Positions 4,529 to 38,852 of a stretch of 47,864 bases of DNA are shown here, in pieces. How positions within the stretch are numbered: position 1 is the stretch's first letter; every line of letters begins with the position of its first letter. The stretch is taken from positions 1-47,864 of the forward strand of contig JAUCBJ010000296.1 in the NCBI GenBank assembly GCA_032718475.1, read 5' to 3'. This DNA is from Nemertoderma westbladi. Lineage: Eukaryota; Animalia; Xenacoelomorpha. The translations under genes were made by a program, and so were the position numbers. The notes below the pieces were generated by a model. That model saw only the letters and a program-made list of their open reading frames with translations, searched no databases and had not been told where the DNA came from.

Positions 4529-4828
4529 CACATCTAGTCCCCTGTACTGTACACATCTAGTCCCCTGTACTGTACACATCTAGTCCCCTGTACTGTACAC
4601 ATCTAGTCCCCTGTACTGTACACATCTAGTCCCCTGTACTGTACACATCTAGTCCCCTGTACTGTACACATCTAGTCCCCTGTACTGTACACATCTAGTC
4701 CCCTGTACTGTACACATCTAGTCCCCTGTACTGTACACATCTAGTCCCCTGTACTGTACACATCTTAGTCCCCTGTACTGTACACATCTAGTCCCCTGTA
4801 CTGTACACATCTAGTCCCCTGTACTGTA
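4529..4828. repeat. 23-bp tandem repeat (CACATCTAGTCCCCTGTACTGTA) x13
   Basis: Near-perfect copies (one has an extra T); the array ends about 20 nt before the exon-4 acceptor of the TIR gene. Confidence 0.95.
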
Positions 4829-4849
4829 CTATAACAATTTATTTTGCAG

Positions 4850-9077: not shown

Positions 9078-9297
9078 TATTTCACTGGCTCATGTGGCTT
9101 CAACTACCTGACAGTCTGACTGTAGGACCAAAACCACAGCTTACAGGCGCTTATCTCGCTGGTACTCCTAGTACCCTGGTACAGGTAGGCCAAACTATTT
9201 ATACTGTAGTATGCCTATTCCAGTATTCTGAGGTAGAATAAAACGTCTGTCCTTATATGGTCTGATCTGACGGCATCTGATCCTACAGTATAACCAA

Positions 9298-9736: not shown

Positions 9737-10133
9737 CAATCAGGAAAAAGAGATATGATATTTACCTAACTGCCTGTTAGGTAAATAGCCAATAGGGGAT
9801 CTCATTTCACGTTGCCTTGTTACGTATCAGTATCATCATATGACATAGCAGCATAGCAGTACAGGCATAACCGGTATGCAGCCAATGCAGCAAGGCATGT
9901 TATTATAATAATATTAAAAATGTGATATAGGATGAAGGATGGCGTGTATGAAAGTTGTGTGATTGCCCCAGCAAAGATGCATATTTTCAGATGTAAACAA
10001 TAGATGGTGTTGAAACATTAAACATTTATTAAAATCAATACAGCCTTTGCTGCAATATTTTAGTAAATCTTTCTTGTTAATTGTTATCATTATTAATAAG
10101 TCAAAGTTAATTATATTAATCATAATTAATATT

Positions 10134-11815
10134 GAGTGGAAAAATCACTTCAGCAACCTGCTTGGGCAACCACCAAACATCGAGGTCAGCCCTACAAGGA
10201 AAATATATGACAATACACTTCCTATAGAGACAGGGGACTTCACACCTGCCGAACTCCAAAGAAGCATTAAAAACATGTCCAATAATAAAGCGAGTGGATT
10301 AGATCAAATCCCAGCGGAGGTATGGAAAACAGGAGTGCTAAACAGACCATTATTGAATGTTTGCAACCGGCCGGATGTTACAAGGGGAAAAGCCACCACC
10401 AATTCGGACTAAAGGTCAACTAAAGCCTCTCCCCGGATACCAACAAACTATCGTGGGATCTGTCTGCTTGTGGTAGCTGCCAAAATATACAATAAAATGA
10501 TTCTATATAGGATTAGGCCTCACATAGAGAAACTACTGCGTAAGAGCCAAAACTGATTTCGACCAAATAGATCGACAATAGCCCAGATACTTGCACTACG
10601 GAGACTGATTGAAGGAATTAAGTCAAAGAATCTCCCCGTCATGACTTTTGTGGACTTCAAGAAGGCATTCGACTCCATCCATAGAGGTAAAATGCTTGAA
10701 ATCCTAAGAGCTTATGGAATACCAGAAGTAATCGTTGCTGGCATTGGATTGTTATATTGTGACACAGAAGCACAGGTACTCTCACCAGATGGTGAAATTT
10801 AGTTTTTCTCAATCCTGGCTGGCGTACTGCAAGGTGACACATTAGCACCATTACTATTTGTAATTGTACTGGATTACGCAATGAGGACGGCCACAAAGGG
10901 TGAAGATCTGGGATTCATTCACATTTCAAGAACGCAGAAGTAGTAGATATCCGGCAACTACAGTCACAGACAACAACTTTGCGGATGATATCGCCCTGCT
11001 CTCTAATACTGTACGCTAGCAGATGCACAGCTTATACTAAATAAAGTGGAGATGGCTGCTAAGGAAGTTGGATTGCATATAAATGCTACCAAGACCGAAT
11101 TCATGACCCTTAATGTTGATGGAAACTTGACAACCATTGATAATAATCAACTAAGGAAGGTCGATGACTTCCAGTACCTTGGATCATGGATAGAGAGTAG
11201 CGAAAAGGACATAGAAGTTAGGACTTCAAAGGCTTGGGTAGCTCTATCAAAAATGGATACCATCTGGAAATCAGATCTCTCCAGGCACCTGAAGACTAAG
11301 TTCTTTCTTCAAAGGCTTGGGTAGCTCTATCAAAAATGGATACCATCTGGAAATCAGATCTCTCCAGGCACCTGAAGACTAAGTTCTTTCGAGCCACAGT
11401 GGAAAGTGTATTTTTATACGGGGGTGAGACCTGAACACTGACTAAATCACTTGAACAACGAATTGATGGTTTGTACACAAGAATACTAAGGGCAGCCCTA
11501 AACTTTAGCTGGAGACAACACACGACAAACGCCGAGCTTTATGGTACAATACAAACTGTATCAACCACCCTCCGTGAACGCAGATTAAGATTCAGTGAGC
11601 ACTGCTGGCGATGTAAAGACGAGGTCATACCAGATCTACTTTTATGGCAACCAACTCACGGAAAGCGCAGTCGTGGACGACCGGCCATAACATATATAGA
11701 TCAACTTGAAAGGGATACTGAACTTGGGAGAAACGAAATTGCGACAACTATGGAGAATCGGGAAGCCTGGAAGGATCTCATTTCCACTGGCCGAGTTCGC
11801 TCAACCTAGTAGTAG
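10134..11815 (+). mobile_element. 5'-truncated RTE-clade LINE (reverse transcriptase pseudogene)
   Basis: RT motifs KASGLDQIPAEVWK, VDFKKAFDSIHR, LQGDTLAPLLF, FADDIALL, FQYLGSWI, RRLRFSEHCWR; in-frame stops and frameshifts; (TAG)n tail; 11-bp TSD TAATTAATATT at 10123-10133 and 11816-11826. Confidence 0.92.
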
Positions 11816-13635: not shown

Positions 13636-15909
13636 TTACCTCCTTTTCCCCCCTTTACGCCCAGAACTCCCCGAACCTTTTCTACTCTGCTTTGTTAAAG
13701 TTTCTTTACCCCTTCTAGATTTATTATTTCTCTCCAACTTCGATTGTTGTCTACGTTTCTCAACTAACTCCATCTTTGCCTTGCGCCGTCTATCTTTAAA
13801 TATCAACTCCTTGGGTTTCAGCACTGGTTTACTATCAGTTTTTATCAGCTTCTGATTATGTCTATGGTACCGTTCTGGTAGACCTCTAGGCTTCCCACCA
13901 TCCGTCTCGGAGGTCCCAGACTTCCCACCATCTAACCACTTCCGGTATCGGTCCGTCTTGTAACTCGCGGGCAAGGACCCGCCCCCCGGCGTCCGTATCT
14001 TCCGCCCCGAGACACCCTTCTTAGCGCCCTCTAGCGAGGCACCACGCGCCACATTAACGAACCTTTTCCTCTTCCGGTCCCACTTTAACTGTCCCTTCTG
14101 CGACCTCATCGTGTCTCCTTCGTCCATGGTTATATCCATAGTGGCGTCGTTTACAGAAACATCGAAGGACTTATCTCTGACACTCAACCCCTTCTCTGTA
14201 TCGGCTCCTACCTGTTTGTAAGGAATATAAACCTCGGATGAACTATCTTTACTCGGGGTTTCCCGATTTCCCAACCCGTTTTCCCCGCGCAACCGTATTT
14301 TCCCATCGTGCGACGCCCGTTTCCGCCGCATTATCGCGGCGCCTTCGCTTAAAGACGACGAGTTTTTAACCTCGAATATCGTGGATCGCGGCTTATAGTT
14401 TGAAACGCCGCGAACTAGCTCGTTTCGCTCGGTCTGTCTATCCGGTTCCCATAGCAAGGCGGGGTGGTTACCAATGTAGCGAAGACTCAACTGCTTGGCT
14501 TTACGAACGCCCTCCCTGCTGGGGGGCGGACGACTACGTATGTACTGCTTGTAGGCGTTGTTAGCGACGTCGTAAGCGGCAGAGAGGTCTGAGTTAAAGC
14601 GGGTATAACCCGTTAGTAATTCGTTGGATTCATCCAGAGTGGATTGTGGGACCTGACCCAGGACACCAGAGGGGGCGGGGGAGGGGGTCAGAGTACCCGA
14701 GGGGGCCATGGAGGGGGCCTCGCTATCCCCAAACACGTTTACCGGCCTCCCAAGGAAGCCGTGGAGGTCTATAAAGTACGGCAGCTCATCCGCGGCGACC
14801 AACGAGTAGGCGGTCCCAATGCGACCGGCCCTCGCAACCCGACCAACTCGATGGACGAACAACTTGGACTTCCCGGGAAAGTTGAAGTTCACGACGTTGT
14901 CTAGAAGGGGGATGTCGACGCCTCTAGCGGCGACATCAGTAACAACGAGAACCCGAGTGACTCCGGTGAGGAAGTTGGAAGTCTGGGACTTCCTAGCGGT
15001 CGCGTCCAACGAAGAGTAAAGGAAGGAAGCCGGAATACCGGCCGTTCGGAGGAGTTCCGAGACAAACTCAACGTGGTGTTTAGTCGCGGTGAATACGAGA
15101 GTCAACTGGTCCGTGGTGTCGATAACAGAGCGTAGGAGATGCAGCAGTAACCCGGGTTTATCGTCGATGCGGCAGTGTAAGTAAACTGTCTGCAGGTCGG
15201 CGCTGAGTTTAGTCTCTACGTCGAGTCGGACCAGCTCGGGGTCGGAGAGTCCGGCTTTAGCGAAGTCCGCGAGCATCCGAGGGATAGTGGCAGAGAATAG
15301 CGCGGTTTGGCGATTCTCCGGAAGTCGACGGAGGATCTCTTGCAACTGTTCCGCGAAACCCAACTCGAACAATCGGTCGGCCTCGTCGAAAACAACGAAT
15401 TCTATTCGCGGCAACTTGAAGTCCATTTCGACCAGCGTGTGTAGGAGTCGCCCCGGTGTGGCGACGATTACATCGGGGTTGGAGTGCAGCGCGGCGAAGT
15501 TGGATTCGATGGAATCGCCACCGAGTAGCAAGGCTCCACGCAACCCGGTGTACCTGCCCAACTCCCGGAGGAACTTCATTGTCTGTGTCGCGAGTTCCCG
15601 CGTGGGACTAAGGATGAGTGTTCGAGTTCCTGTTGTCTGCGTCCCTTTTAGTCGCTCCAGTAAGGGCAGCAGAAACGCAGCAGTTTTACCGCTGCCAGTT
15701 CTCGCCATTGCTACGACGTCTCTTCCTTGCATCAGTAACGGAATGCATTTCCGCTGGATTGGCGTCGGCAGTTTGTAGCCCTTCCTTAGGACACCTCGGT
15801 ACACCGCATTCCCGAAACCCATCGTTTGGAAACCACCAGATTTTTTGCGCACCGTTGAAACTTTCGGATCATTGTTTGTGCCAAATGTTCTTACTTTTTC
15901 TTTATTCAT
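13636..15909 (-). CDS. DDX54: DEAD-box RNA helicase DDX54/DBP10, 757 aa, single coding exon
   Basis: KKSGGFQTMG, Q-motif PTPIQ, AMARTGSGKT, PTRELA, DEAD, SAT, HRVGRVARAGR; DBP10CT-like WDRKRKRFV...LPASYKTDRYRKW; basic C-terminus. Confidence 0.96.
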   Translation of the reverse strand: MNKEKVRTFGTNNDPKVSTVRKKSGGFQTMGFGNAVYRGVLRKGYKLPTPIQRKCIPLLMQGRDVVAMARTGSGKTAAFLLPLLERLKGTQTTGTRTLILSPTRELATQTMKFLRELGRYTGLRGALLLGGDSIESNFAALHSNPDVIVATPGRLLHTLVEMDFKLPRIEFVVFDEADRLFELGFAEQLQEILRRLPENRQTALFSATIPRMLADFAKAGLSDPELVRLDVETKLSADLQTVYLHCRIDDKPGLLLHLLRSVIDTTDQLTLVFTATKHHVEFVSELLRTAGIPASFLYSSLDATARKSQTSNFLTGVTRVLVVTDVAARGVDIPLLDNVVNFNFPGKSKLFVHRVGRVARAGRIGTAYSLVAADELPYFIDLHGFLGRPVNVFGDSEAPSMAPSGTLTPSPAPSGVLGQVPQSTLDESNELLTGYTRFNSDLSAAYDVANNAYKQYIRSRPPPSREGVRKAKQLSLRYIGNHPALLWEPDRQTERNELVRGVSNYKPRSTIFEVKNSSSLSEGAAIMRRKRASHDGKIRLRGENGLGNRETPSKDSSSEVYIPYKQVGADTEKGLSVRDKSFDVSVNDATMDITMDEGDTMRSQKGQLKWDRKRKRFVNVARGASLEGAKKGVSGRKIRTPGGGSLPASYKTDRYRKWLDGGKSGTSETDGGKPRGLPERYHRHNQKLIKTDSKPVLKPKELIFKDRRRKAKMELVEKRRQQSKLERNNKSRRGKETLTKQSRKGSGSSGRKGGKRR

Positions 15910-15992
15910 TTTCTTACTACTGCACTACAGTTCTAGGCCCAGAGCACAGACTGACAGGTGACAGAGGCCTATTCATTAAATTCACTAATACT

Positions 15993-16220: not shown

Positions 16221-19074
16221 TGAATCATGAATCATCACAAGTCGGAATCTCGCGTTGAATAAAAATAGCACAGGTCGATTCGCCCGTCCCATTCTCACAA
16301 AGTTTGTACTTTATTCGAGTGTTTAATATAAAGATGTATGATTATTTATTGATTAAAATAAAATAGTGTATAAATATGTAATATTCCCTCACGCAGCCTC
16401 TACTTTCCCTATGGTAGGGAATGGGGAAGGATTTTCTCTGTATCATAGCAACGTTGTATAATTATTTAACTCTAGCTATCTGGGAAGACATGTAGCAAGC
16501 TGGCTGGAGTGTTGAGTGTGTCTCAGTAAATCCAATGGTTGGGGTGGGTTGTCTGTTGAGAACTCCGAACTGGTCATGGCATTAATTCTGCTTTCTCCAA
16601 GGCTGCATGGAGGGTGAGAAGGGTTTACATATTGATTGCGATTGATATTTTATTGGGGATTAGATTATCATTTAGTTTTTCGGTTTTGTTGTCTTATAGA
16701 CGGTATTCTTATAGCCAGCTTGTTGGCTTTTTAAAAGTAAATAAGACCAAAATCCTGGAGTATTACTTGCAAACAAAATTAGAATCAATAATGCTGTTTT
16801 ACAGGTAAAGTCAATTTTGTCATTTAGGTTGTTTGAAAATGAAAGGGACGAGATATTCTATGACCGATCTGTCAACATTTCAGCTTAAAACGAATGAAAA
16901 AAACAACAAAGAAATATGAGGACGCTTAATCGGGTGTCTGTCGAGCTATGCACAACTACAGTACTGTATGCAACTGGGTTGTACATTTAAATATTAAAAC
17001 TCCCTTATACTGTATCTACAAGTATACAAGTTAATAATATATATTGCCAACAATGTCGAACACCAAGGGTTATGTTATTGTCAATTCATTCACATTTAAT
17101 TCGTGCCAAACATGTGATATTACCTACTTAATTAAATATATTATTAGGTTACTCAAGAAATGATATTATTATTGCTTAAACTCAAATCCTGGAGCGGACC
17201 AATTCGATGTTATTTATTAATATTAACGAAATGTTACCAATATGAGACCATCTGGATAACTGTGATAGCCTACGGATGGACACTAATTTAATTAATTAAT
17301 AGGGTCAATAATTTAATTAAACGGATTATTATTGGGCTGTTTGTATGTGTGTAGGCCTATAAAATTTATCCCAGAATTTGGCACTCTATTAGGCTTATAC
17401 TGTACCACTACAACTTGGTTACATACGGTATTAAATTAATTATAGAGCCACTTATTGTATGTGTATTTTAAAATTGTTTCACTGAACAATACAAAACTGC
17501 ATGTATTATCTGCTCTCATTACCATATGCGCTGGGACTGATATAGTATTAAACTGAAACATATTAATACCATTCTGTTATTTCACATAAAAATAATTTAG
17601 TAGCTGTCTTATTCTATACAAATAATTTACACACAGTGTTGTGTGTTTTGTTTATCTGTTTCTGGTCTAGTAGGTGGGGATAACATGCCTGCCAACTGAC
17701 AACAGAGCAGGAAGTCTTTTATAGGAGGGAAATAATTCCAATTTAATTTATCTTATGTGCTGGAAACACTACTTACCTTTAAAGCTGTACACTGTAACCA
17801 TAAGACAGGTGCTGAAATACCTTGAAGGGTGAAAACTACTTAGAATAGAGTATTAAAAGTTAGGCATGGATGGGTAATTTTTCTGTTTCGTACAGTACAG
17901 TAGTGCTGTATGGCATTGAGTTGAAACTATTGCTATGCTACATTATTATTTGTTTATATGTAGGTGAGAAGTGTTTCTTATGCAATTTTACCTTGCTCCG
18001 TTAATTAAGTTAACCATAAAGATAAAATCGTCTGTCTACATAGCACGATAACGTGATACAGTGCATAACGAAAGCCTTGTTTAATAAAGTAAACAAGGTA
18101 CCATAATAACTACTGTATAATATTATTATTAGCAATAGCAAATATAAAATATCCAAGTAAAGTCAACCCGATCGCATTGGTTAAAGTAATGATGTGCGTT
18201 GGGGCGACGGCTGTCAGCTACTAAATTAAATACAAAGTAATGGATACCGTAGTCGTATACAACACTTTGCTACCTACAATATTATTAGGAGATACTGTAT
18301 ATATTAGTCGCGATGCGATGACTTCTGTATATTTGCTGTGCTTTCAACTTTTATTTGCAATCAACCTTGAAATACATTTAAGGCAGTTCTTATTGATTTC
18401 CCCAACGCACATCATTACTTTAAACTTATTACTAATTTGCTCAAGCAATAAATAACAGGAACAGCAGCTGTAAGCTTACCCACGGTACAACATAGGGCCT
18501 ACAGTAAAATAATCGTTAATATCTATTTGTTCCTTGTATATGAAGTTAACTAATCGATTTACAACTCAAGTTTATTTAACTTGCTTATAATTTAGTTCAC
18601 TGACACAATATCTACCTTATATTAAAATGTACTGTAAATGTTTATTTATTTATAATACGTACTAATTTTAATTTTATTTGTAACTAAAAATTTGCTTTTC
18701 CCACTAAAGTAAATATTTTTACTAAATTTTTGTCTCTAAAATATAATTTCTCCACTAAAATGTAATAATTATCACTAAAATTTATTTTTTATCAACGAAA
18801 ATACAACTACTACCTGATCTATTGAATTTCGTTTACTGTTTTGGTTAGAATAAAGTGCCACCTTAACCTGCTCCTTTCCCTTATTTAATGATAATTAATC
18901 GATTTTAGTTGTAATTAATATATTTAGCATAAAATTAATATTCAAGTGATTTTCCTGAATAAATTTAGTGACAATAATGATTATTTTAAGTAGGTCGATA
19001 AGTGACTATGCCATTATTGCAATTGATATAATTAATGGATTCTAATTAAAGTGTTACTGATATTAATCTACAGT

Positions 19075-20004
19075 ATGATGAAAGACACAATTAGCGGCCA
19101 ATTAAACGGGCTACCGTCACGCAAAGCTGACAACGAGACTGAATGCCGTAATGAAAGAATTCCAAATGTGGAACCATTCGTTCAACTTGCCGGACATCCT
19201 GGTACCTTGTCCAAAGCGTCCAGTAAAACATTGTATAAGGAGATTAGCAGTTCCCCCGAGTGCCCAGAACTCAAGGCGTATGTGGAACTACATAGGGAAC
19301 CTTTTATGAGTCAATTCCTCGCGAAATTCCACCGCCGTGTCGAAATAGATGGCCAGTTTTACATCGAGATTGACGACTTGACTTCGGGATTGTCTCGCGT
19401 TTGTATCATTGATATAAAATTAGGATCGCGAACTTTTTTAGAAAAAGAGGTGTCTGCAACTAATTCTCGGAATGATTTGTACAAAAAGATGATAAAAGTT
19501 GATCCGAAAGCTCCAACCGAGACGGAGCACGCTGCCCAAGCCGTTACCAAGCTGCGGTACATGCAGTTCCGCGAGAAATCGTCGACAAGTCAACTGTTAT
19601 CCTACCGAATAGAAGGAATCCATATCCACGGTGCACCGAAACTCGAAACCAACGCGGACCTCAAACGGATCAACAAAGAGGAACAAGTGATCCCAGAGTT
19701 CGCGAGATTCTTTAATTCCAACCGAAATCTCATCAGGTCGGCCACAGATAAACTCCGTTTGCTTCGGCGTTGTATATCCACGTCACCGTACTTCCGGCAG
19801 CATGAGGCCGTAGGGACTTCACTCCTTATTGTACACGATCAGGTCAGCCAACTCGGGGTTTATCTAATAGACTTCGCGAAGAACCTGCCGACCCCCAATG
19901 GTATGGTGGTCCATCACCAAGGTGAATGGTTGCTAGGCAACAAGGAAGAAGGACTCCTTGACGGATTGGACAATATCATACGATTGCTACTCTTTGAAAT
20001 TTAA
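19075..20004 (+). CDS. Inositol-trisphosphate 3-kinase (ITPKA/B/C family) catalytic domain
   Basis: FVQLAGHPG, DIKLGSRTFLEKE, RNDLYKKMIKVDPKAPT, VTKLRYMQFRE, HEAVGTSLLIVHD, LIDFAK, GNKEEGLLDGLDNII. Acceptor TCTACAG| at 19073 just before ATG 19075; upstream exons are possible. Confidence 0.93.
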   Translation: MMKDTISGQLNGLPSRKADNETECRNERIPNVEPFVQLAGHPGTLSKASSKTLYKEISSSPECPELKAYVELHREPFMSQFLAKFHRRVEIDGQFYIEIDDLTSGLSRVCIIDIKLGSRTFLEKEVSATNSRNDLYKKMIKVDPKAPTETEHAAQAVTKLRYMQFREKSSTSQLLSYRIEGIHIHGAPKLETNADLKRINKEEQVIPEFARFFNSNRNLIRSATDKLRLLRRCISTSPYFRQHEAVGTSLLIVHDQVSQLGVYLIDFAKNLPTPNGMVVHHQGEWLLGNKEEGLLDGLDNIIRLLLFEI

Positions 20005-21049: not shown

Positions 21050-21610
21050 GGGCAAAATTAGTGAAATTCAGTCGTATGCGGTAATATTTTATATTACATT
21101 TTATTACAACTAAAAACCATGTGGTCAAATGAGAGTTGATGTTGTGAAATATTTTATTTACACGGCAAATCTCTCAGTCATCGGTTTTACTTTCTGAGAA
21201 TGTCTTTGCCATTAGCTAACCGACCCTAAACTGTTTGGTATTTTATCCAGTGCCATCGGAATTACACAACTGAAATAAGAATAAGCCGTTGGTTGATATT
21301 GGATTTAAGTATAATAAATATAATAAAATAAACTGGACATTATATCTAAACCGTGTAATAATAGCATAAATATTTAATAATTTATGTGGATTAATAAAAC
21401 CATGGCAAATAACAATTTATATATAGTTGACGAGATAGGGTGTAAGTATATAATTTTGCAGTACATACGTACAAATGTCTGATTATCAAATAATTAACTT
21501 AACACTTTTTAACAATTAAAAACAATCAAATAGTTTCCAAACTGCACCTGGCAATTAATGATTTAGGAATTACCGATAGCTAGCACCGAATGAATTCACG
21601 CCGTTATATT

Positions 21611-22015
21611 TTACATAACCCGACACCTTTCCGGTTCTTTAAATAATTTGCTGTTGTCTATGGCTTGCTGTACGAGCCCATCATCCCTTTCTGCCTCACG
21701 TTCGGCCTCATCAAGATTCTGAACTAATTTATCTCTTTTATTAACCAAATCGACGAGTTCGTTAATGAGCATCTCTTCCCGCCCTCTTTGCGTTTCTGTT
21801 TTCTCCCATTCTTCCAGAGCTAACATGGCTCGCAGTTCTCTGTTGAGCAGTTCGCATCTCGCTTCCAGGTTATTCTCTTGTTCTAGAATACTCAGTTGAT
21901 TGTGACGTCTGATCAATGCGTTCTTCTTGTTGACCAAAGTGAACCACTCCAAAGTTAGACTTTCTTCAACATCACGATTTCCGGAATGCATTTCCACACG
22001 AAGTTTCCTTTCAAC
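21611..22015 (-). CDS. EHBP1: EHBP1 exon 4: bMERB (DUF3585) domain and CaaX (CRVM)
   Basis: TTTAG|GTT GAA acceptor; EWFTLVNKKNALIRR...LNRELRAMLALEEWEKT...LVNKRDKLV; ends CRVM*. Confidence 0.92.
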   Translation of the reverse strand, partial: VERKLRVEMHSGNRDVEESLTLEWFTLVNKKNALIRRHNQLSILEQENNLEARCELLNRELRAMLALEEWEKTETQRGREEMLINELVDLVNKRDKLVQNLDEAEREAERDDGLVQQAIDNSKLFKEPERCRVM

Positions 22016-22971
22016 CTAAACGCATTCAATTATTATAGCCGAATTTGTGAACGTTTTATGAATTAGGGCAGAACCTAATTATTCGAAACAGAATACTATA
22101 AATATTAAAATAATATACTATATAAAATAATATGATAATAAAATAAAATACTATATATTAAAATAATATATAAACATTATTGGGATGCGCCGAATTATTA
22201 TGGGAAATCATTATGGGCTATCTATCCCCCCCCCCCCCCCCCCCCCTCCATATAGGCCAAATGGTGAAAACATAGTTGTGCATTTTTTGGTTGAAGTATA
22301 CCCGGTGCTCTACGACATCAAATTCACCACAATCGCGATCATCGATAAAGACGTTTTGCCACTAGACACACTTCTTTATTGGGGGTAGGTGAGACTAAAA
22401 CTGTAAAAAAGTTAATATTTCTGAAGTGCTTGCTTTATTTATCAAATTATTGTAACATGTTTTGCTATGTTATCGGAATGTGCTTCATTAGTTCGTTCTC
22501 ATTGTAGGATTTATAGTGGTGCTATGGGACTCATTTTGGTCTCATTGGTTGGCCGATTTAGTTAGGTCGACAATCATATTTTAAGACGAACATCATGAGC
22601 CCCCCCCCCCCCCCCCCCCCCCTTCCCAGGTTAATAAACTTCTTCGGGTTTTCGAAGGGATGGTACTTCACCATCCCTGGGACCTCCATGTTCGCTGTTA
22701 TCCGCCTCCTACTGCGTTTTGTTGGGCGCAGTGGGATGCTGTGCATTGGCACAGTGGGATGTAGCAGTTGGAGGTGGCGCAGTGGGATGTAGCTGATCTC
22801 CAATAAACTATTGCTTAATAAGGCAGCCTAGGACATGACTTATTTGTTGTTGTGTTCTACCTACTGGAAATGGGATGAAGTATTATTTGAATGAACAGTG
22901 ATATAAAGAGCACAAGAAATTTTCTATTATGTAAATATCCACATAATATTTACCAACATTGGTTTTAAACA

Positions 22972-25900
22972 CAACAACAACTCACCTCGGCTGCTCTCCT
23001 ATCCACTACAACAACTCACCTCGGCTGCTGTCCTATCCACTACAACAACTCACCTCGGCTGCTCTCCTATCCACTACAACAACTCACCTCGACTGCTCTC
23101 CTATCCACTACAACAACCCACCTCGGCTGCTCTCCTACCCACTACAACAACTCACCTCGGCTGCTCTCCTATCCACTACAACAACTCACCTCGGCTGCTC
23201 TCCTATCCACTACAACAACTCACCTCGGCTGCTCTCCTATCCACTACAACAACTCACCTCGGCTGCTCTCCTATCCACTACAACAACTCACCTCGGCTGC
23301 TCTCCTATCCACTACAACAACTCACCTCGGCTGCTCTCCTATCCACTACAACAACTCACCTCGGCTGCTCTCCTATCCACTACAACAACTCACCTCGGCT
23401 GCTCTCCTATCCACTACAACAAATCACCTCGGCTGCTCTCCTATCCTCGGTTACAACAACTCACCTCGGCTGCTCTCCTATCCACTACAACAACTCACCT
23501 CGGCTGCTCTCCTACCCAATAAAACAACTCACCTCGGCTGCTCTCCCACCCACTACAACAACTCACCTCGGCTGCTCTCCTATCCTCGGTTACAACAACT
23601 CACCTCGGCTGCTCTCCGATCCACTACAACAACTCACCTCGGCTGCTCTCCTATCCACTACAACAACTCACCTCGGCTGCTCTCCTACCCACCACAACAA
23701 CCCACCTCGGCTGCTCTCCTACCCTCGGTTACAACAACTCACCTCGGCTGCTCTCCTATCCACTACAACAACTCACCTCGGCTGCTCTCCTATCCACTAC
23801 AACAACTCACCCCGGCTGCTCTCCTATCCACTACAACAACTCACCTCGGCTGCTCTCCTATCCACTACAACAACTCACCTCGGCTGCTCTCCTATCCACT
23901 ACAACAACTCACCTCGGCTGCTCTCCTACCCTCGGTTACAACAACTCACCTCGGCTGCTCTCCTATCCACTACAACAACTCACCTCGGCTGCTCTCCTAT
24001 CCACTACAACAACTCACCTCGGCTGCTCTCCTATCCACTACAACAACTCACCTCGGCTGCTCTCCTACCCTCGGTTACAACAACTCACCTCGGCTGCTCT
24101 CCTATCCACTACAACAACTCACCTCGGCTGCTCTCCTATCCACTACAACAACTCACCTCGGCTGCTCTCCTATCCACTACAACAACTCACCTCGGCTGCT
24201 CTCCTATCCACTACAACAACTCACCTCGGCTGCTCTCCTATCCACTACAACAACTCACCTCGGCTGCTCTCCTATCCACTACAACAACTCACCTCGGCTG
24301 CTCTCCTATCCACTACAACAACTCACCTCGGCTGCTCTCCTATCCACTACAACAACTCACCTCGGCTGCTCTCCTATCCACTACAACAACTCACCTCGGC
24401 TGCTCTCCTATCCACTACAACAACTCACCTCGGCTGCTCTCCTATCCACTACAACAACTCACCTCGGCTGCTCTCCTATCCACTACAACAACTCACCTCG
24501 GCTGCTCTCCTATCCACTACAACAACTCACCTCGGCTGCTCTCCTATCCACTACAACAACTCACCTCGGCTGCTCTCCTATCCACTACAACAACTCACCT
24601 CGGCTGCTCTCCTATCCACTACAACAACTCACCTCGGCTGCTCTCCTATCCACTACAACAACTCACCTCGGCTGCTCTCCTATCCACTACAACAACTCAC
24701 CTCGGCTGCTCTCCTATCCACTACAACAACTCACCTCGGCTGCTCTCCTATCCACTACAACAACTCACCTCGGCTGCTCTCCTATCCACTACAACAACTC
24801 ACCTCGGCTGCTCTCCTATCCACTACAACAACTCACCTCGGCTGCTCTCCTATCCTCGGTTACAACAACTCACCTCGGCTGCTCTCCTATCCACTACAAC
24901 AACTCACCTCGGCTGCTCTCCTATCCACTACAACAACTCACCTCGGCTGCTCTCCTATCCACTACAACAACTCACCTCGGCTGCTCTCCTACCCACTACA
25001 ACAACTCACCTCGGCTGCTCTCCTATCCACTACAACAACTCACCTCGGCTGCTCTCCTATCCACTACAACAACTCACCTCGGCTGCTCTCCTATCCACTA
25101 CAACAACTCACCTCGGCTGCTCTCCTATCCACTACAACAACTCACCTCGGCTGCTCTCCTATCCACTACAACAACTCACCTCGGCTGCTCTCCTATCCAC
25201 TACAACAACTCACCTCGGCTGCTCTCCTATCCACTACAACAACTCACCTCGGCTGCTCTCCTACCCTCGGTTACAACAACTCACCTCGGCTGCTCTCCTA
25301 TCCACTACAACAACTCACCTCGGCTGCTCTCCTATCCACTACAACAACTCACCTCGGCTGCTCTCCTATCCACTACAACAACTCACCTCGGCTGCTCTCC
25401 TATCCACTACAACAACTCACCTCGGCTGCTCTCCTATCCACTACAACAACTCACCTCGGCTGCTCTCCTATCCACTACAACAACTCACCTCGGCTGCTCT
25501 CCTATCCACTACAACAACTCACCTCGGCTGCTCTCCTACCCACTACAACAACTCACCTCGGCTGCTCTCCTATCCACTACAACAACTCACCTCGGCTGCT
25601 CTCCTACCCTCGGTTACAACAACTCACCTCGGCTGCTCTCCTATCCACTACAACAACTCACCTCGGCTGCTCTCCTACCCACTACAACAACTCACCTCGG
25701 CTGCTCTCCTATCCACTACAACAACTCACCTCGGCTGCTCTCCTATCCTCGGTTACAACAACTCACCTCGGCTGCTCTCCTATCCACTACAACAACTCAC
25801 CTCGGCTGCTCTCCTATCCACTACAACAACTCACCTCGGCTGCTCTCCTATCCACTACAACAACTCACCTCGGCTGCTCTCCTATCCACTACAACAACTC

Positions 25901-26964
25901 ACCTCGGCTGCTCTCCTATCCACTACAACAACTCACCTCGGCTGCTCTCCTATCCACTACAACAACTCACCTCGGCTGCTCTCCTACCCTCGGTTACAAC
26001 AACTCACCTCGGCTGCTCTCCTATCCACTACAACAACTCACCTCGGCTGCTCTCCTATCCACTACAACAACTCACCTCGGCTGCTCTCCTATCCACTACA
26101 ACAACTCACCTCGGCTGCTCTCCTATCCTCGGTTACAACAACTCACCTCGGCTGCTCTCCTATCCACTACAACAACTCACCTCGGCTGCTCTCCTATCCA
26201 CTACAACAACTCACCTCGGCTGCTCTCCTATCCACTACAACAACTCACCTCGGCTGCTCTCCTATCCACTACAACAACTCACCTCGGCTGCTCTCCTATC
26301 CACTACAACAACTCACCTCGGCTGCTCTCCTATCCACTACAACAACTCACCTCGGCTGCTCTCCTATCCACTACAACAACTCACCTCGGCTGCTCTCCTA
26401 TCCACTACAACAACTCACCTCGGCTGCTCTCCTATCCACTACAACAACTCACCTCGGCTGCTCTCCTATCCACTACAACAACTCACCTCGGCTGCTCTCC
26501 TATCCACTACAACAACTCACCTCGGCTGCTCTCCTATCCACTATAACAACTCACCTCGGCTGCTCTCCTATCCACTACAACAACTCACCTCGGCTGCTCT
26601 CCTATCCTCGGTTACAACAACTCACCTCGGCTGCTCTCCTATCCACTACAACAACTCACCTCGGCTGCTCTCCTATCCACTACAACAACTCACCTCGGCT
26701 GCTCTCCTATCCTCGGTTACAACAACTCACCTCGGCTGCTCTCCTATCCTCGGTTACAACAACTCACCTCGGCTGCTCTCCTATCCACTACAACAACTCA
26801 CCTCGGCTGCTCTCCTATCCACTACAACAACTCACCTCGGCTGCTCTCCTATCCTCGGTTACAACAACTCACCTCGGCTGCTCTCCTATCCTCGGTTACA
26901 ACAACTCACCTCGGCTGCTCTCCTATCCACTACAACAACTCACCTCGGCTGCTCTCCTATCCAC
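22972..26964 (-). repeat. ~4-kb 34-bp tandem array (with interspersed 37-bp variants) made of the EHBP1 exon-3/intron-3 junction
   Basis: Minus-strand unit TGGATAGGAGAGCAGCCGAG|GTGAGTTGTTGTAG, i.e. the last 20 exon nt plus the first 14 intron nt; about 115 copies by length. Confidence 0.97.
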
Positions 26965-27216
26965 GGTTATCTGCTCTGTCTGTAACGCACACATCTCAGC
27001 CTTTACGTATTCGCTGGTCTCCATAGTTTTGGATTTCCTTCTCGCCAGCTCGTCGTGGTGTGGCGGCGACAACGACGAGGACAAGCGGCCGCTGGACGAG
27101 GAACGACGGCTATCGTTACTACGACGACTATCGCTGCTACGACGTTTACTGCTACCAGATTGTCTGTCGGTGGAAGAATGTTTGTTCTTAGACGAAGCGA
27201 GAACATCAGTGAACGA
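26944..27216 (-). CDS. EHBP1: EHBP1 exon 3 (SFTDVLASS...TSEYVKAEMCALQTEQITVDRRAAE)
   Basis: TTTTTTTCTAG| acceptor, GAG|GTGAGT donor, 273 nt, phase 0-0. The end matches the start of the EHBP1 bMERB region (TSxYV..E..AL..EQ..ID.RAA). Confidence 0.88.
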
Positions 27217-27445
27217 CTAGAAAAAAATTAAGAAATCGATGGAGAAACATGAAAACGTTGTTTCAATAAATAAATTTAAACAATATAAAAATAATCATCA
27301 ATGGTATAAAATTTAATGAGAACAGACGGACCATTTACCATTAAATTACGGTATATAACTTATCTTTAATAATGAAATTAATTGCTTTTGTAAGAATTTA
27401 TAAGAAAGAGAAATCGAAAGTTAATTAATTAAATTAATTGGTTAC

Positions 27446-28603
27446 CTTCAAAGACGTTCTCCTGGGAACTTTAATTTGCCCGGTTGCGGTTTTAGTGAAA
27501 GTACCATTGAAGACGCGCTGTTCTTGGGGCGAGCCATGCAGCCCGTTAACAGCGTTGCGACTGGGGGAAGTGCGTTGGGGCGAGCCATCAAGCGTGGGAT
27601 CCGTAATACCCCGTTTCGCATTCTCAATGAGTTGTTTAGCTCTATCCCTCAACTCCCTGTGTCTCCCCTCCTCCCCCTCCTGCTGCTCCCCTACTCCCTT
27701 TCTCGCTCCCCTCCTCGCCGCAACCTCGCGTCTCGCCTGCTCCAACAACTCTTTCGCTCGCGACTTCCGCTCGGCATCTTTCGAACGAACCGGCGGGATC
27801 CCATTCGCGTCGCCCAACAACTCGCTGGCCGACTTTAAGTTACTCCGCGTTTTCCGCTTTGTATTCCCCAGGGTTGCCCCCTCGCTGTCCCCCACTGCCC
27901 CCTCGCTGTCCCCCAATGCCCCCTCGCCGTCCCCCACTGCCCCCTCGCTGCCCCCCACTACTCCTCCTTCCAGGGGACCTATCGCGTCGTCTCCAGCAGA
28001 CCCCTGCGCCTCCCTACCATCCAGAGAATCCTCTAAAGGCCCCAATCGGAGTTTAGTTTTCGGCGCGTTCGGCGCAGAAAGAACCGCAGACAATCTCCGT
28101 TCCGTCGTTCCCTCCTGATCCTCAGCGCGGTTCCCGCCCGTTCCTCTGCGTTCCGCGGCTCCTGTGTCCACGGTTGAGGCTCGCTCCCGCGCGCTTGCAG
28201 ATCGCTCGCGTGCCGTCATCGTCTCCTTCCGGAAGACTTCCGGGGTTACGAGCTGACTGGGGTCGCTCGCGTAATCCCCGATAACGTAGGACCCCCCTAC
28301 TAGGTAGGAGGAGCCCGACTCCTGTAGGACCGAAACGTCCATCGACTGGCCCGTAAAGTAGGTCCGCAACTGGTGGAGGTACGTCATTACGGCGAGTTTA
28401 TCGGGGACCGCTAGCAGCACCATGTCGCCGGGTTCTAGAACGCGGGGTATCCCTAGCGACGCGGCCGCGTCGAAGGCCATACGGCAGTTGCGTTTGATAT
28501 CGTCCGCTTTCAGAGTTTCGTAATCGATGAGGAGGGGTCGGTAATGGTGGATGATTGCGCAGAAAGCCAAACCGTTGCGCCAGGAAGTGGAGAAGTTGGT
28601 GAC
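27446..28603 (-). CDS. EHBP1: EHBP1 exon 2: most of the CH domain plus low-complexity/coiled-coil region
   Basis: GTTTCAG|[23 protein letters not shown]...[30 protein letters not shown]; donor AAG|GTAACC. Confidence 0.92.
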
Positions 28604-29490
28604 CTGAAACGATACGATTTAGGGCCTGAAGCGGTTAATTTTTCCGTCAACCGGTTATATAACCATTTCCAATTAACCGGTTAACGGGTCAAAAAGTAGA
28701 AATGTTTGTTTGTTTTAGGTTGAAAAAGAAGTACGAATTAGGCCTACCTAGACCTACAACCTATGGTGCAATGGCAGGGTGCAACATACATACTACGGTA
28801 TATACTATGAAACTGAAAGTTATATCGCTGACAGACCCCAAACTTAAGCTGCAGTACCGGTATGTGAAGGGCGCCACACTAACTCCCAACGTCGAATACT
28901 CTCGCTATCCAAAGAAAGGCCAAGTTATTGATTGATCCAATAATTTTTCCCATAACAGAGGGTGGGGTGGGGACTGGGGTCCCGTAGGTTGTGACTGCCG
29001 GGGGCCCGAAAATCCATAATCCGTCCCTGGTGAGTGAGTACAAACATTAGAACACTGTAAGTAAGTAGGTAGTTTTATTCAAAATTATTAAAATATTAAC
29101 AAAATTACATAAAAATTTTAATATAAATTAATAAATAATTGTAGGCCCCTATTTGAAACTATTGTTGTTAAATTAGTTTAATATTCTATCTATTATATTT
29201 ATAATTGTATTATAATTGAATATCGATTTTCTATCAATTTTAGAACTCACAAACAATTGGTTAGCCTATATACGGTATTACTGCCAATACCGGTACTTGG
29301 GGTTAATTATTATCTGTAATTGTTTCTCTTGAAGAGATAATGTGAATAATTTTGCACAGCGATGACTACGTGATTACATTAATTAAGTACCGGTATTACT
29401 TTAAGTGAAAATAGTTCGTTATTAACCAGCAAACGGAATACCGTTACCGACAGCGGTTTGCAAATTACTTTACTAGACTGCGGGACTTAC

Positions 29491-30669
29491 CTTAACACCT
29501 CGGTTACCGTATTCCGCGGTCACCTCCTTACACCAGTCGAGGAGGGACTGACTGGAGCGGGTATCGGTACCGGTAGCGGTGGGTTGGGAGGGGGGTGGAG
29601 GGGCCCGACCCTTACCAGCCCCACGGGGTTTCGGTCCCCCGAGCCCGGGAGGTTTAGGGGCCGGACCTTTACCAGACCTTTTTGTAGCAACGCTGTCAAC
29701 AAAGGGGTTTGTCTCGTCTTCGAGTGCGGTGAACTTAGAGAGCAGTTGAGATTCAACGCACCCCGGACTCGGTATTGGAGTCTGCGGTTCAGGATCGGAG
29801 TCGAACAAAAACGGATTAGTTTCAGCCTCGATAACAATCTTATTATTTACTTTCGGTTTCACTAATTTAAATAAAGAAGGTTTAAGTGTAGCGGTGCCGT
29901 CATCCGGATCCGAAAGGTCTTGGTGAGTGATTTCGTACGAATCCGATTCCGGCGGATCCTCTTGGCGAGTCATTTCGTTCCATTCCGACTCCGGATCATC
30001 TTGTCGCGACAGTTTACTCAACTCCTCCGCAACTTTACTAATTCCCAAGGCGGTTTCCACATCTTCGTCAAATTCTTTACTCTCATCCAAATCGCCTTCA
30101 AGCTCCGACAAGTTGCCGACATCCTCGTTTCGACAATCGACCGACATCATACTCGCTATCGACTGCATATCGTCGTCAGTGGCCTTACCTTCACGGATAA
30201 ACGAGGCCGTTAATGAGAAGGTTAGTTTTGCGTTTTTCACTTTGCTTGTCAGCGGTTTGAGCGTTAAATTAACATCGTTCCTCGTCGTTGCCACACCGAT
30301 GTATTCCCCGAGGTTTATTTCCGCGGATGCTAATGGTTTCCGTTTGCCTTTCTTATCTTCATTTTCGATTACAAAATCCCAAACTTTATCTTCATAGAGT
30401 TCCTGTTTAGGATCCCTAAACAACGTCACCAAAATGTCGACGTTTTCCGGTACCGACCACAAGATCATCCCACGGAATGGGTTCGAGATTGTCGGTTGCC
30501 ATGGTTGCGGCTTGCTTTCGTAACGACGCCGACGCCGCTCCCAGACAACCACGAGTTTATTTGGTTGCCACTTCTCGCCGCATTCCAGTACCAATTCGTA
30601 ATAGGAAGCGACAAACTGAAACTTAGCAGCCCTTTTATTTACGCGCTGGAGTCTCTTCCAAACACTCAT
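29491..30669 (-). CDS. EHBP1: EHBP1 exon 1: NT-C2 domain, NPF motifs, start of CH domain
   Basis: MSVWKRLQRVNKRAAKFQFVASY...WQPNKLVVVW...REGKATDDDMQSIASMMS; two ETNPF motifs; SQSLLDWCKEVT; donor AAG|GTAAGT. Confidence 0.95.
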
Positions 30670-34597: not shown

Positions 34598-37500
34598 GGG
34601 TGTAACTTTTGCGTAGAGGTATAGCCTACATAGAGGCTACATGTAGGTATGTGTAGCCTACATGTAGATGCACGTGTAGGGTGAATGTAGGTAGGTGTAG
34701 GTAGGTCTTTAAAAACAACAATGATGAATGAATAGGCCTACACGGGGTACCCGGACCGGAACTTCCTCGATGAGATGCGAATGCGGCGAACGGGGGTGGT
34801 ACCCGGAACAACCACGAAGAGATGCGAATATGGCGGGCGGTGGTACCCGAAACAACCAGGAGGAGATGCGAATACGTCGAATGGGGGTCCCCTGAATACC
34901 CACGAGACGGAGCCTATCAATACTACACTACTACAGTACTGACAAAGGAAAAAACGACTGAACGATATACCGATACATACTGTAGATCTTATGATCCTGC
35001 GGGTTCAGGCATGGAGGCTAATGACTTTGTATGGGCCGAACGGCCCGAACCTGATGTTTCCAGTCAAGGAGGAATCTACTAACGGTTAGGGTTAGAGCTC
35101 GTCGTCGGTGTCCATGAGGGTCTGAGGATGCGAGTGGGTGATTCAACAAAAGGCTAACAATGATACCGGACTGACTGATTGAACCGGAGTGGCGATGGTA
35201 GTCGCTGATGTATATATATTATATATATCATGTATTGATTGTTAGTAGATATTTTTTTATAATATTTGTTTATTAAATTGTCTTCAATGTCTATATTGAT
35301 AATATTGTGTGCTGACTGGCTGATTTTACTTATTTTTCATTTTATAAATCTTGCTGTGGCCGTTTTAATCTACTAAACTGCCGTATCAATTTCATGATAT
35401 TTTAATGGATATGCAATTTAACTTCTTCTTTCTATTAACTTTCAATCATTCAATGCAATCAAATATACCGGTAACTGTAAAGCTATTGACTTTCGTGTTA
35501 TTGTTTTGCTGTTACTTCGAGATGGGATTTGAATCCCATCGGATTACTGATTAATTCCCATTATCGAGAAGGGAATACTTTATAATGAAACAGTGTGGTG
35601 GTCCGCGGGATAGTGGGAAGGGATGGGACTGTTGCTGGTTGGTGGAATGTGCGACTGCCTGAAAAATTAAAACAAACAAAACTTCCAGACTTCTATATTT
35701 TTACTTTCAAAACAAAACGTCCAAAACATTTCAATGCTGAAGTACTGTTCAAGTCCCATGGATGTATGGTTGATAAACAGATAAAGAGGGGCAGAGGGGG
35801 GTCAGGGTTTCTGGTAGACTATAGTCCCGGCGATGATGGCTGTTTGTTTAGGTTACTCTTACTCAATAAACATATAAATCAGAACGAGTTAATCTATGGA
35901 ACAATGCCTTTCGTGGCGTTAGCATACTCAAATTTATTAGGGCCTAGTATTTCAGTATTTATGACGAGTAAGGGACTTTAGTATAATCAGAACGCGATGT
36001 TTGATATTTATACAGTACTGCAGTATGCAGTAAAACCTGTTGTGTGACAGCAGACCGGTCTGCAGGTTGATGTACCGTATTGTACCGTGGAGGGTGGAGA
36101 TCAGAGATTATTGCCATACATCCTGATTGCGAGCTGGGGGAAGATCTTCTCTGTGCTGGGGGTAAGCGCGCGTAAGAAAAGGGGGAAGAGGGGGAAAGAA
36201 ACGGGGTATGGATCTATAAATAGCATCCAATGGGACGCCTCAATTTTACGACCGTTCTATACTGTAAACATACAGTTGTCTACCTTATGGAGAAGTGGTA
36301 ATACTACTTAATAGTTGCTAAACTTACCCCCCCCCCCCCCCCCCCCCCCACCTACTGTATCATTACACTACACACCTACTATACTCAACCATGCATACCC
36401 ATTCCTACATACCTACTTACACGTACCCTACCACCCACCTAAGCACGTCGACTTAACTGCACCAACCCACCGATCTAAGCACACCTACTTAACCGCACCC
36501 ACCTACCCACCTAAGCACGTATACTTACCCACACACACCCACCTACCTAAGCACAACTACTTAACTGCACCCACCCACCCTCCTAAGCACGTCTACTTAA
36601 CCGCACCCACCCACCAACCTAAGCACGTCTAGGTAACCACACCCACCCACCCACCTAAGCACATCGACTTAACCGCACCCACCCACCAATCTAAGCACAC
36701 CTACTTAACCGCACCCACCCACCCACCTAAGCACACCTACTTAACCGCACCCACCCGCCCTCCTAAGCACGTCTACTTACCCGCACCCACCCACCCACCT
36801 AAACACGTTTACTTAACCGCACCCACCCACCTAAGCACGTGTACTTAACCGCACCCACCCACCCACCCACCTAAGCACGTATACTTACCCGCACCCACCT
36901 CCTACCTAAGCACACCTAGTTAACCGCACCCACCTAAGCACATCGACTTAACCGCACCCACCCACCCACATAAGCACGTGTACTTAATCACACTAACCCA
37001 CCCACCCACCTAAGCACGTATACTTACCCGCACCCACCTCCTACCTAAGCACACATAATTAACCGCACCCACCTAAGCACGTATACTTAAACACACCCAC
37101 CCACCCACCTAAGCACGTTTACTTAACCACACCCACCCACCCACCTAAGCACATCGACTTAACGACACCCACCCACCCACCTAAGCACACCTCCTTAACC
37201 GCACGTGTACTTAACCGCAAACAATCAACCAATCCACCTAAGCACGTCTACTTAACCGCACCCACCCACCCACCTAAGCACACCTACTTAACCGCACCCA
37301 CCCACCTACATAAGAACGTCTACTTAACCGCACCCACCCACCCACCTAAGCACACCTACTTAACCGCACCAACCCACCTACATAAGCACGACTACTTAAC
37401 CGCACCCACCCACCCTCATAAAGACGTCTACTTAACCGCACCCACCCATCTACCTAAGCACAACTACTTAACTGCACCCACCTAAGCACATCGACTTAGC

Positions 37501-38852
37501 CGCACCCACCCACCCACCTAAGCACACCTACTTAACCGCACCCGGCCACCCACCCTCCTAAGCACATCGACTTAACCGCACCCACCCACCCACCTAAGCA
37601 CACCTACTTAACTGCACCCACCCACCAACCTAAACACGTCTACTTAACCGCACCCACACACCAAACTAAGCACGTCTACTTAACCGCACCCACACACCAA
37701 ATTAAGCAAGCACGTCTACTTAACCACACCCAACCTCCCCTACCCCTACACACCTAATTACCCGCACTCACCTACCCCTACCCACCCCCCCTCCCTCTCA
37801 CATCCTATTTACCCGCACCGACCGCCCGAACCTAACAAACACACCCACCCCTACTTTTCCTACCTTATTCAGACTCCATGGCAAACATTCACGGAGCAAT
37901 CGTGCCGTACAGGAAATTTGCAAAAACGGAAAGCAGGGACAGTTTTCGCCAAAACCTTTTTTACAAGAACCTTTTTTTATAATCGTTTCCTATAAAATAA
38001 TGCTAAGTTTCTACATCCTAGAACATTCGATAACTATTGTAAATTATTGTAATTAATTAATAGGTTGGTTGCTTTTTTTAACATATATTATTAAATAAAT
38101 GTGAGATAGTTTGTGCAGTTAGTTTAATTATAATATCGTAAACATCACTACACAAAAACGCGTTTTACACACCAGATCTTTACAACATTACCTTTATTCG
38201 CATGCGAAAATAAGGGTTATGCCAGAGCCAGCCTAGAGGCCAAGCAAGGTACCGGTAGCCGTAGCAATGCAAGAAGCTAGAAGCTTCCTATTGGGTGCTA
38301 TTTTTAGATCCTTCCCCCTTTTCTTACCCCCTCATCCGTGCCACCACTGGTTCAGCCAAACAACCCAGGCAGCTCCGTAGCCCATCATTGTTCCAATTCT
38401 TCCAGTAGGCTATCATTACGGCTCTCCTAATTTGTTTCAAATTTGTTTCACTGGCATACTTAACATTGTTCCAATTTTTTGAGCTCCGTAGCCCATCATT
38501 GTTCCAATTCTACGGTAGACTATCATTACGGCCCTCCTAATTTGTTTCAAATTTGTTTCACTGGCTTACATAGCATTGCAGGTAGGATACCATTACGTGG
38601 CTCCTAATATGTTTCAATTATGTTCCAATTTTGTTTCAACTAACAGAGACATACTAGTGGCAGTACGCGTATTGGATTGACGACCGTGTATGACGTTACT
38701 GCAAGTTGACACATAAATTACATTAATATCTATGGGACTCACTACACCTACCTGCCTACCTACATTCACCCTACACCTGCATCTACATGTAGGCTACACC
38801 TACCTTCATGTAGCCTCTATATAGGCTATACCTCTACGCAAAAGATATACCC
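34598..38852. mobile_element. Non-autonomous Mutator-type (MULE) DNA transposon, 4255 bp
   Basis: ~110-bp TIRs GGGTGTAACTTTTGCGTAGAGGTATAGCCTA.../...TAGGCTATACCTCTACGCAAAAGATATACCC; exact 9-bp TSD CCTCTCAGC at 34589-34597 and 38853-38861; no transposase ORF. Confidence 0.9.
36395..37735. repeat. Degenerate ~32-bp minisatellite inside the MULE
   Basis: Unit ~CACCCACCCACCTAAGCACGTCTACTTAACCG with a variable number of CACC. Confidence 0.9.

What the first reader, a model, noticed from the sequence alone, without database searches (positions are those of the whole stretch)
22972..26964. An EHBP1 intron built from ~115 tandem copies of its own 5' splice site, with a stop codon behind the first donor
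Seen: on the gene strand the unit is TGGATAGGAGAGCAGCCGAG|GTGAGTTGTTGTAG, the last 20 nt of exon 3 plus the start of the intron. The array fills about 80% of the 4928-nt intron and ends in the original intron sequence (GTGAGTTGTTGTTGTGTTT). Reading past the first donor gives GTG AGT TGT TGT AGT GGA TAG, so extending exon 3 to any later, locally identical donor truncates EHBP1 before most of bMERB and the CaaX box. Established: GAG|GTGAGT is a near-consensus U1 snRNA site, and competing donors closer to the acceptor are often preferred. Inference: either the spliceosome reliably selects the first of ~115 equivalent donors, or the array works as a copy-number-dependent poison-splicing/NMD dial, a U1 sink, or a stepwise splicing track. 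It may also be a tolerated neutral expansion.
Basis: partly seen in the sequence, partly recalled or inferred. Interest (0 to 1): 0.85.

Follow-up and report, generated by a model that had tools for sequence, protein, structure and literature searches.

The report
Splice-donor minisatellite in EHBP1 intron
The end of one exon of an animal's EHBP1 gene, splice signal included, stands in 116 head-to-tail copies that fill 80% of the next intron, yet both assembled spliced transcripts use the first signal, so this is likely a harmless, large example of a repeat type already known from human and lancelet genes.

Summary
In detail: a 34/37-nt minisatellite (22970-26964) starts in EHBP1 exon 3 and repeats its donor 116 times in a 4928-nt intron. 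Array sequence is deep in 3 of 3 DNA-like public runs laid, so it is not an assembly artefact. Two runs from two studies behave as spliced RNA; in both, one contig joins exon 3 at the first donor directly to exon 4. The stop behind the donor is not special: all three introns, and the sequence after the last unit, stop within 7 codons. Donor positions mutate at the neutral rate (3 of 12 changes). This is a member of a known class: human F7/CBS/IFI6/LMNB2/PDGF donor VNTRs (PMC1557585) and lancelet 'mirages' (PMC3087553), where the most upstream donor dominates. Poison dial, U1 sink and recursive splicing have no support; minor or NMD-removed isoforms cannot be excluded with contigs. The scan noted the same arrangement before: 15 unchecked notes on other pieces of this genome, and notes on other genomes. 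The open question is that genome-wide density, not this locus.

The parts
29491..30669 (-). EHBP1 coding exon 1 (NT-C2 domain, start of CH)
   Evidence: its 3' end is the loose end of the X4 contig behind 28605
27446..28603 (-). EHBP1 exon 2 (CH domain, low-complexity linker)
   Evidence: X4 joint 27216-27446 skips 229 nt, CT..AC
26944..27216 (-). EHBP1 exon 3 (273 nt); its last 20-25 nt are the exonic part of the repeat unit
26935..26946 (-). Authentic donor of intron 3 (GAG|GTGAGT, first intron base 26943), the one used in both spliced contigs
22970..26964 (-). Junction-spanning minisatellite: 99 x 34-nt and 16 x 37-nt complete units plus a last unit; 115 extra donor-like sites
22016..22969 (-). 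Unique 3' part of intron 3 with branch-like motifs (CTAAT, TTCAC in the last 60 nt) and acceptor TTTAG
21611..22015 (-). EHBP1 exon 4, coding part (most of bMERB, CaaX-type end CRVM, stop)
   Evidence: X4 and X5 contigs
21293..21610 (-). 3' UTR up to a poly(A)-like tail at 21293 in run X4
   Evidence: 21 loose T before 21293

Best explanation
A short stretch spanning the exon 3/intron 3 boundary of EHBP1 is repeated 116 times into the intron, both spliced contigs use the first donor, and the array is likely a tolerated neutral minisatellite that is removed with the intron. Shown: anatomy, presence in other DNA samples, first-donor joining in assembled RNA. Inferred, origin: one 37-nt tandem duplication (last 25 exon bases plus first 12 intron bases); the common 34-nt unit is that piece minus 3 nt and the 37-nt unit is that piece with one substitution; ordinary slippage or unequal exchange then expanded and homogenised both. 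Inferred, tolerance: donor 1 emerges first from the polymerase and closes the shortest exon with the exon 3 acceptor, so it is committed before the copies compete, as shown for human F7. Inferred, leakage: rare use of donor 2 or 3 would give a truncated product, but as noise and not as a control device.
For: RNA-like runs X4 (study P3) and X5 (study P2): one contig each (2316 nt, depth 122; 1150 nt, depth 44) continues from exon 4 through the shared 20-23 nt into exon-3-unique sequence, not into array sequence. X4 also skips intron 2 at GT-AG and has a poly(A)-like end. Array sequence is deep in DNA-like runs X1, X2, X3 (bin 26905-26964: 1211, 1005, 109 against flanks of about 17, 23, 2-5). 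Unit ancestry. 3 of 12 distinct changes fall in the donor 9-mer against 26% expected, p=1.0. 11 of 12 occurrences of rare changes lie in the last 26 of 115 units (cut-off chosen after looking), the edge-versus-core pattern also described for mirages (PMC3087553). Four large arrays cover 21.6% of the window. Precedent with minigene proof of upstream-most selection: PMC1557585.
Against: Only assembled contigs were available; they drop rare forms and cannot give ratios, and NMD would thin out poison isoforms. The animals that gave the RNA are not shown to carry the array: X5 shares a sample code with X2/X3 but differs from X2's contig at 21776 and 21523. The X4 contig lacks 2 nt at 27989 in exon 2, which would stop the frame at 646 aa, so it may hold an error or an odd allele. 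In IFI6 and CBS the next two copies are used as well (PMC1557585, Introduction). The test of neutrality rests on 12 changes and is weak. If the earlier notes on this genome hold, junction arrays are far denser than the 0.4% per junction expected from this window's array density, which plain neutrality does not explain.
Confidence: 0.8

Rival explanations
1. Poison-splicing dial: later donors are used in proportion to copy number, giving stop-carrying transcripts that lower EHBP1 output.
For: All 115 later donors would give an 876-aa product without most of bMERB and the CaaX end. All keep GT and are about as unpaired as donor 1 in local folds (0.55 mean against 0.45). Nearby copies are used in human IFI6 and CBS (PMC1557585).
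Against: 2 of 2 RNA-like runs show only donor 1. The stop is ordinary (4 of 4 read-throughs stop within 7 codons). The likeliest leaks, donors 2 and 3, leave the stop only 13 and 50 nt before the junction, at or under the 50-55-nt rule for junction-dependent NMD (recalled). In F7, use falls with distance from the authentic site, so distant copies should add little.
Confidence: 0.07
2. Biased origin: in this genome splice junctions, mostly donors, preferentially seed giant minisatellites. One route would be that exon ends are the GC-rich seeds that can grow without breaking the gene; another, transcription- or splicing-linked DNA damage at donors. The array is still passive at this locus, but it is one product of a genome-wide process.
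For: All four large arrays in the window are GC-rich (0.48-0.57) against 0.37 for the rest and 0.21-0.39 for EHBP1 introns; exon 3 is 0.53. The transcribed strand is strongly G-skewed (skew about -0.65 on +). Lead only: 15 distinct unchecked notes on this genome (13 donor-side, 2 acceptor-side). PMC3087553 calls mirages possibly general in lancelets, mechanism unclear.
Against: No genome was held, so enrichment was not tested. In this window only 1 of 4 large arrays could be tied to a junction, and it was picked for that reason. The notes are selected for oddity.
Confidence: 0.3
3. Recursive (stepwise) splicing or repeated 20-nt microexons: AG and GT within each unit let the intron be removed in steps, or units be included as exons.
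For: Each 34-nt unit holds TTGTTGTAG 20 nt before a donor, and AG|GT at the donor itself.
Against: The AG at the donor is GAG with a purine-rich run upstream; no branch-like motif lies in the unit, while two lie near the real acceptor. The X4 contig has no extra letters between exon 3 and exon 4 (record positions 1573/1574).
Confidence: 0.03
4. U1 sink or U1-based protection from premature cleavage in the last intron.
For: 112 near-consensus U1 sites per transcript (U1 pairing recalled).
Against: No sign of selection on the donor 9-mer; the unique part of the intron is under 1 kb; one moderately expressed gene would bind little of a very abundant snRNP (inference).
Confidence: 0.02
5. Assembly artefact.
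For: Depth ratios of single array contigs (X1 771 against 17, about 45-fold; X3 114 against 3-5) are below the 87 copies of those words in the window; no read spans the array.
Against: Array junction sequence is deep in 3 of 3 DNA-like runs, from two studies; X2 differs from the window at many sites, so it is not the source. Structured variant units are unlike an artefact. The exact copy number is unverified.
Confidence: 0.02

Closest known systems
Human F7 intron 7 37-bp VNTR (Borensztajn et al. 2006, PMC1557585; seen: abstract, Introduction, parts 1, 2 and 4 of 6 of the text, further passages)
   Same: First unit spans the exon-intron boundary; identical donors follow; only the most upstream is used; same unit size.
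   Different: 5-9 copies against 116; 4 exonic bases per unit against 20-25; human against an unnamed animal; F7 was tested with minigenes, this locus only by contigs.
Human IFI6 (6-16) intron 2 (25 pseudo-sites), CBS intron 13 31-bp VNTR (15-20 copies), LMNB2 (100 bp, 10-15), PDGF intron 4 (81 bp, 16-18), as cited in the Introduction of PMC1557585; CBS nomenclature c.1444_1467+7(16_21) seen in passages of PMC2630376
   Same: Donor reiterated by a minisatellite; CBS has a mostly exonic unit (24 exon + 7 intron bases), close to this anatomy.
   Different: IFI6 and CBS also use two pseudo-sites; none is seen here at contig level; copy number here is 5-10 times higher. The primary papers were not read.
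Lancelet 'mirage' minisatellites (Adh3, globins BflGb6/BflGb9, troponin C, PGBD5; passages of PMC3087553 and PMC3902484)
   Same: Tandem duplications of exon-intron boundaries in an invertebrate, units 10-160 bp, normal splicing, concerted evolution with divergent edge units, mechanism unclear.
   Different: The globin cases read have 1-6 units; this one has 116 over 4 kb. Somatic instability, reported for Adh3, was not tested here.

Membership tests
Junction-spanning minisatellite (F7-type VNTR / lancelet mirage) | Head-to-tail units of minisatellite size | tested here: met
   34/37 nt, 116 copies
Junction-spanning minisatellite (F7-type VNTR / lancelet mirage) | First unit spans a real, used exon-intron boundary | tested here: met
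   Spliced contigs of X4 and X5 leave the genome at 26944/26943
Junction-spanning minisatellite (F7-type VNTR / lancelet mirage) | Internal units keep the splice signal | tested here: met
   116 of 116 keep GT, 112 are identical 9-mers
Junction-spanning minisatellite (F7-type VNTR / lancelet mirage) | The authentic, most upstream donor dominates in mRNA | tested here: met
   2 of 2 RNA-like runs, contig level only; array genotype of the RNA donors unknown
Junction-spanning minisatellite (F7-type VNTR / lancelet mirage) | Length polymorphism or instability | tested here: inconclusive
   Depth ratios differ among runs and from the window, but contig depth is no copy number
Junction-spanning minisatellite (F7-type VNTR / lancelet mirage) | Concerted evolution with divergent edge units | tested here: met
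   86 identical units; 11 of 12 rare-change occurrences in the last 26 units, cut-off post hoc
Regulated poison splicing (AS-NMD) | A stop-carrying isoform is made | tested here: inconclusive
   None in 2 contig sets, which drop rare forms
Regulated poison splicing (AS-NMD) | Isoform rises on NMD block | not testable with these tools
   No such data
Regulated poison splicing (AS-NMD) | Conserved across species | not testable with these tools
   No genome or relative held; all 6 listed runs carry one organism code
Recursive splicing | YAG|GT site behind a pyrimidine tract and branch point | tested here: not met
   GAG|GT behind a purine-rich run, no branch-like motif in the unit; the definition is recalled
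EHBP1 | NT-C2 + CH + bMERB + C-terminal CaaX | tested here: met

The most novel reading that the evidence does not exclude
This array is one product of a genome-wide process in this animal that turns splice junctions, mostly donors, into kilobase-scale satellites far more often than chance, through a mutation route tied to transcription or splicing at exon ends. The spliceosome then holds to the first of hundreds of identical donors, making the genome a natural large-scale test of first-come donor selection.
Probability: 0.25. Interest if true: 0.65.

Novelty: new member of a known kind. Interest (0 to 1): 0.2.

Why it matters
As a single locus it matters little: it extends a known class from about 5-25 copies to 116 and fits first-donor selection outside mammals. 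It would matter more if junction arrays prove enriched genome-wide, because the origin of mirages is stated to be unclear (PMC3087553) and such a genome would allow origin and donor choice to be measured over many loci.

Tried and rejected
No whole genome was held, so there was no genome-wide count. The run search listed 6 runs, none on record as RNA; 5 of 6 were laid (X6, 1 million letters and next to none of the words, was not); X4 and X5 are read as RNA from their joints. No X4 or X5 contig other than the spliced one lay on array units: bin depths 46.8, 27.6, 33.3, 9.94 and 12 equal the spliced contig's share. Uncovered parts prove nothing by themselves, so this is a weak hint only. An array-less allele could not be tested: DNA contigs end where unique sequence ends on both sides. 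RNA structure does not single out donor 1. The long + strand open frames over the array were rejected as genes: they follow from a unit without stops on that strand. Intron gain by duplication was rejected: the intron has its own unique 3' part and acceptor. A Pfam scan of 37 other open frames gave only weak RT matches at 10557-11321 and three marginal hits below cut-off, so the other three large arrays could not be tied to exons. Nine paper searches returned the F7, CBS and mirage papers but no genome-wide survey of junction-spanning arrays; the library is partial. PMC10078293 (passages) did not bear on this. Five papers looked up by id were not held, among them the primary IFI6 and Adh3 papers. 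No supplements were read.

Full report
Observation. TRF finds one array at 22970-26964, period 34, 116.1 copies. On the minus strand it begins about 20 nt inside exon 3 of an EHBP1 gene. Pfam gives NT-C2, CH and bMERB in exons 1, 2 and 4. A homology search with exon 1 against longer proteins lists EHBP1 throughout the best 120 of 3916 hits, apart from two 'hypothetical protein' labels and two unnamed rows. Four phase-0 exons (30669-29491, 28603-27446, 27216-26944, 22015-21611) give 1004 aa ending in CRVM; the introns are 887, 229 and 4928 nt. There are 116 donor-like sites, 112 of them GAG|GTGAGT, spaced 34 nt (99 times) or 37 nt (16 times), and the array is 80.6% of the intron. Any later donor would give 876 aa.

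Is it real DNA? The run search listed 6 runs with one organism code, from 3 coded studies, none on record as RNA. Flanks with about 60 nt of array were laid on X1-X4 and on X1, X2, X4, X5. X1, X2 and X3 cover introns and carry array sequence at tens of times flank depth (1211, 1005, 109 against about 17, 23, 2-5). X1 may be the source sample; X2 differs from the window at many sites. A 37-nt-type junction is seen in X2 (table 5c). The array is therefore not an artefact of this assembly. Its length is unverified: single-contig ratios (about 45 in X1, 25-35 in X3) are below the 87 copies in the window, but contig depth is no copy number.

Which donor is used? X4 and X5, labelled 'DNA?', behave as spliced RNA. 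One X4 contig (2316 nt, depth 122) skips intron 2 at GT-AG, runs into exon 1 at one end, and leaves the genome at the first donor into exon 4 sequence. It ends in a poly(A)-like tail at 21293. From the exon 4 side, X4 and X5 (1150 nt, depth 44; another study) match the 23 nt shared by all units and then continue with exon-3-unique sequence (table 7). So 2 of 2 RNA-like runs use donor 1, with no inserted letters. Limits: contigs drop rare forms; NMD would thin out poison forms; X5 shares a sample code with X2/X3 but differs from X2 at 21776 and 21523, so the RNA animals' array genotype is unknown; the X4 contig lacks 2 nt at 27989, which would break the frame.

Signs of function. None was found. 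The stop at codon 7 behind donor 1 is ordinary: introns 1 and 2 stop at codons 6 and 4, and the sequence after the last unit at codon 7. Of 12 distinct changes among units, 3 hit the donor 9-mer (26% expected, p=1.0) and none hits GT (48% expected by chance); this is a weak test. Local folding does not favour donor 1. The unit has no branch-like motif and its AG|GT is GAG after purines, unlike recursive sites (definition recalled). Donors 2 and 3, the likeliest leaks, would leave the stop 13 and 50 nt before the junction, at or under the junction rule for NMD (recalled).

Origin (inferred). A 37-nt duplication of exon positions -25 to intron +12 explains both unit types: the 37-nt unit differs from it by one base and the 34-nt unit is it minus 3 nt; the exact ancestral unit is absent from the array. 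One change is shared by both types, suggesting exchange between units, and rare changes cluster in the last 26 units (11 of 12 occurrences; cut-off post hoc). The window is rich in minisatellites (21.6% in four arrays), all GC-rich against their surroundings.

Comparison. PMC1557585 (abstract, Introduction, parts 1, 2 and 4 of 6 read) describes the F7 intron 7 VNTR, 37 bp x 5-9, whose first unit spans the boundary. Only the most upstream donor is used, and inactivating it moves splicing to the next. It cites IFI6 and CBS (two further copies used) and LMNB2 and PDGF (first only). Lancelet 'mirages' are the invertebrate counterpart, with normal splicing and an unclear mechanism (passages of PMC3087553 and PMC3902484); the name reached me through earlier notes and I checked it in those papers. 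The locus meets five of six membership features tested; polymorphism is inconclusive.

Context from the scan (unchecked notes, a lead only). Four look-ups showed 15 distinct notes on other pieces of this genome with junction-spanning arrays, 13 at donors and 2 at acceptors, up to about 2,100 copies, most reporting first-donor use and one (GALNS) an internal copy as well. Six notes concern other genomes. I could not check them (no genome). At this window's array density a given junction has about a 0.4% chance of seeding an array, so several per gene, if true, point to a biased origin. That is the novel case; this locus would be a small member.

Verdict. Real, spliced normally at the first donor in the RNA seen, a new member of a known kind, most likely neutral. 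Interest 0.2.

Noticed in passing
window 41090-45818: 49-nt array, 97.6 copies, bracketed by a short inverted pair (TAGACT left, AGTCTA right), with a related short palindrome near 47472-47500. It may be carried by a transposon (recalled resemblance); no exon was found at its ends.
   Followed up: partly
window 36413-37739 and 4529-4829: A degenerate 36-nt C-rich array and a 23-nt x 13 array; the latter ends about 20 nt before an acceptor-like TTTTGCAG, but no gene was confirmed there.
   Followed up: partly
window 22907-27220 (+): Antisense open frames of 1437, 1338 and 1007 aa run across the array, and similar ones across the 49-nt array; likely by-products of units without stops on that strand.
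   Followed up: no
window 27989-27990, run X4: The X4 transcript contig lacks 2 nt in exon 2, which would stop EHBP1 at 646 aa; X1 and X2 DNA contigs do not show it. A contig error or an expressed null allele; if real it would hint at weak NMD.
   Followed up: partly
window 27077-27079: X1, X2 and X4 all lack one codon of a serine run that the window has in exon 3.
   Followed up: no
window 28620-28700: A high-copy element (depth 250-1100 in DNA runs, many loose ends) ends about 16 nt before the exon 2 acceptor.
   Followed up: no
window 7875-9089 (-), 13636-15924 (-), 19036-20004 (+): Uninterrupted open frames for RPAP2/Rtr1, a DBP10/DDX54-type helicase and an inositol polyphosphate kinase: apparently intronless neighbours.
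   Followed up: partly
window 10014-11809 (+): Broken reverse-transcriptase (LINE-like) remnant with an exact 83-nt tandem duplication at 11224-11390.
   Followed up: no
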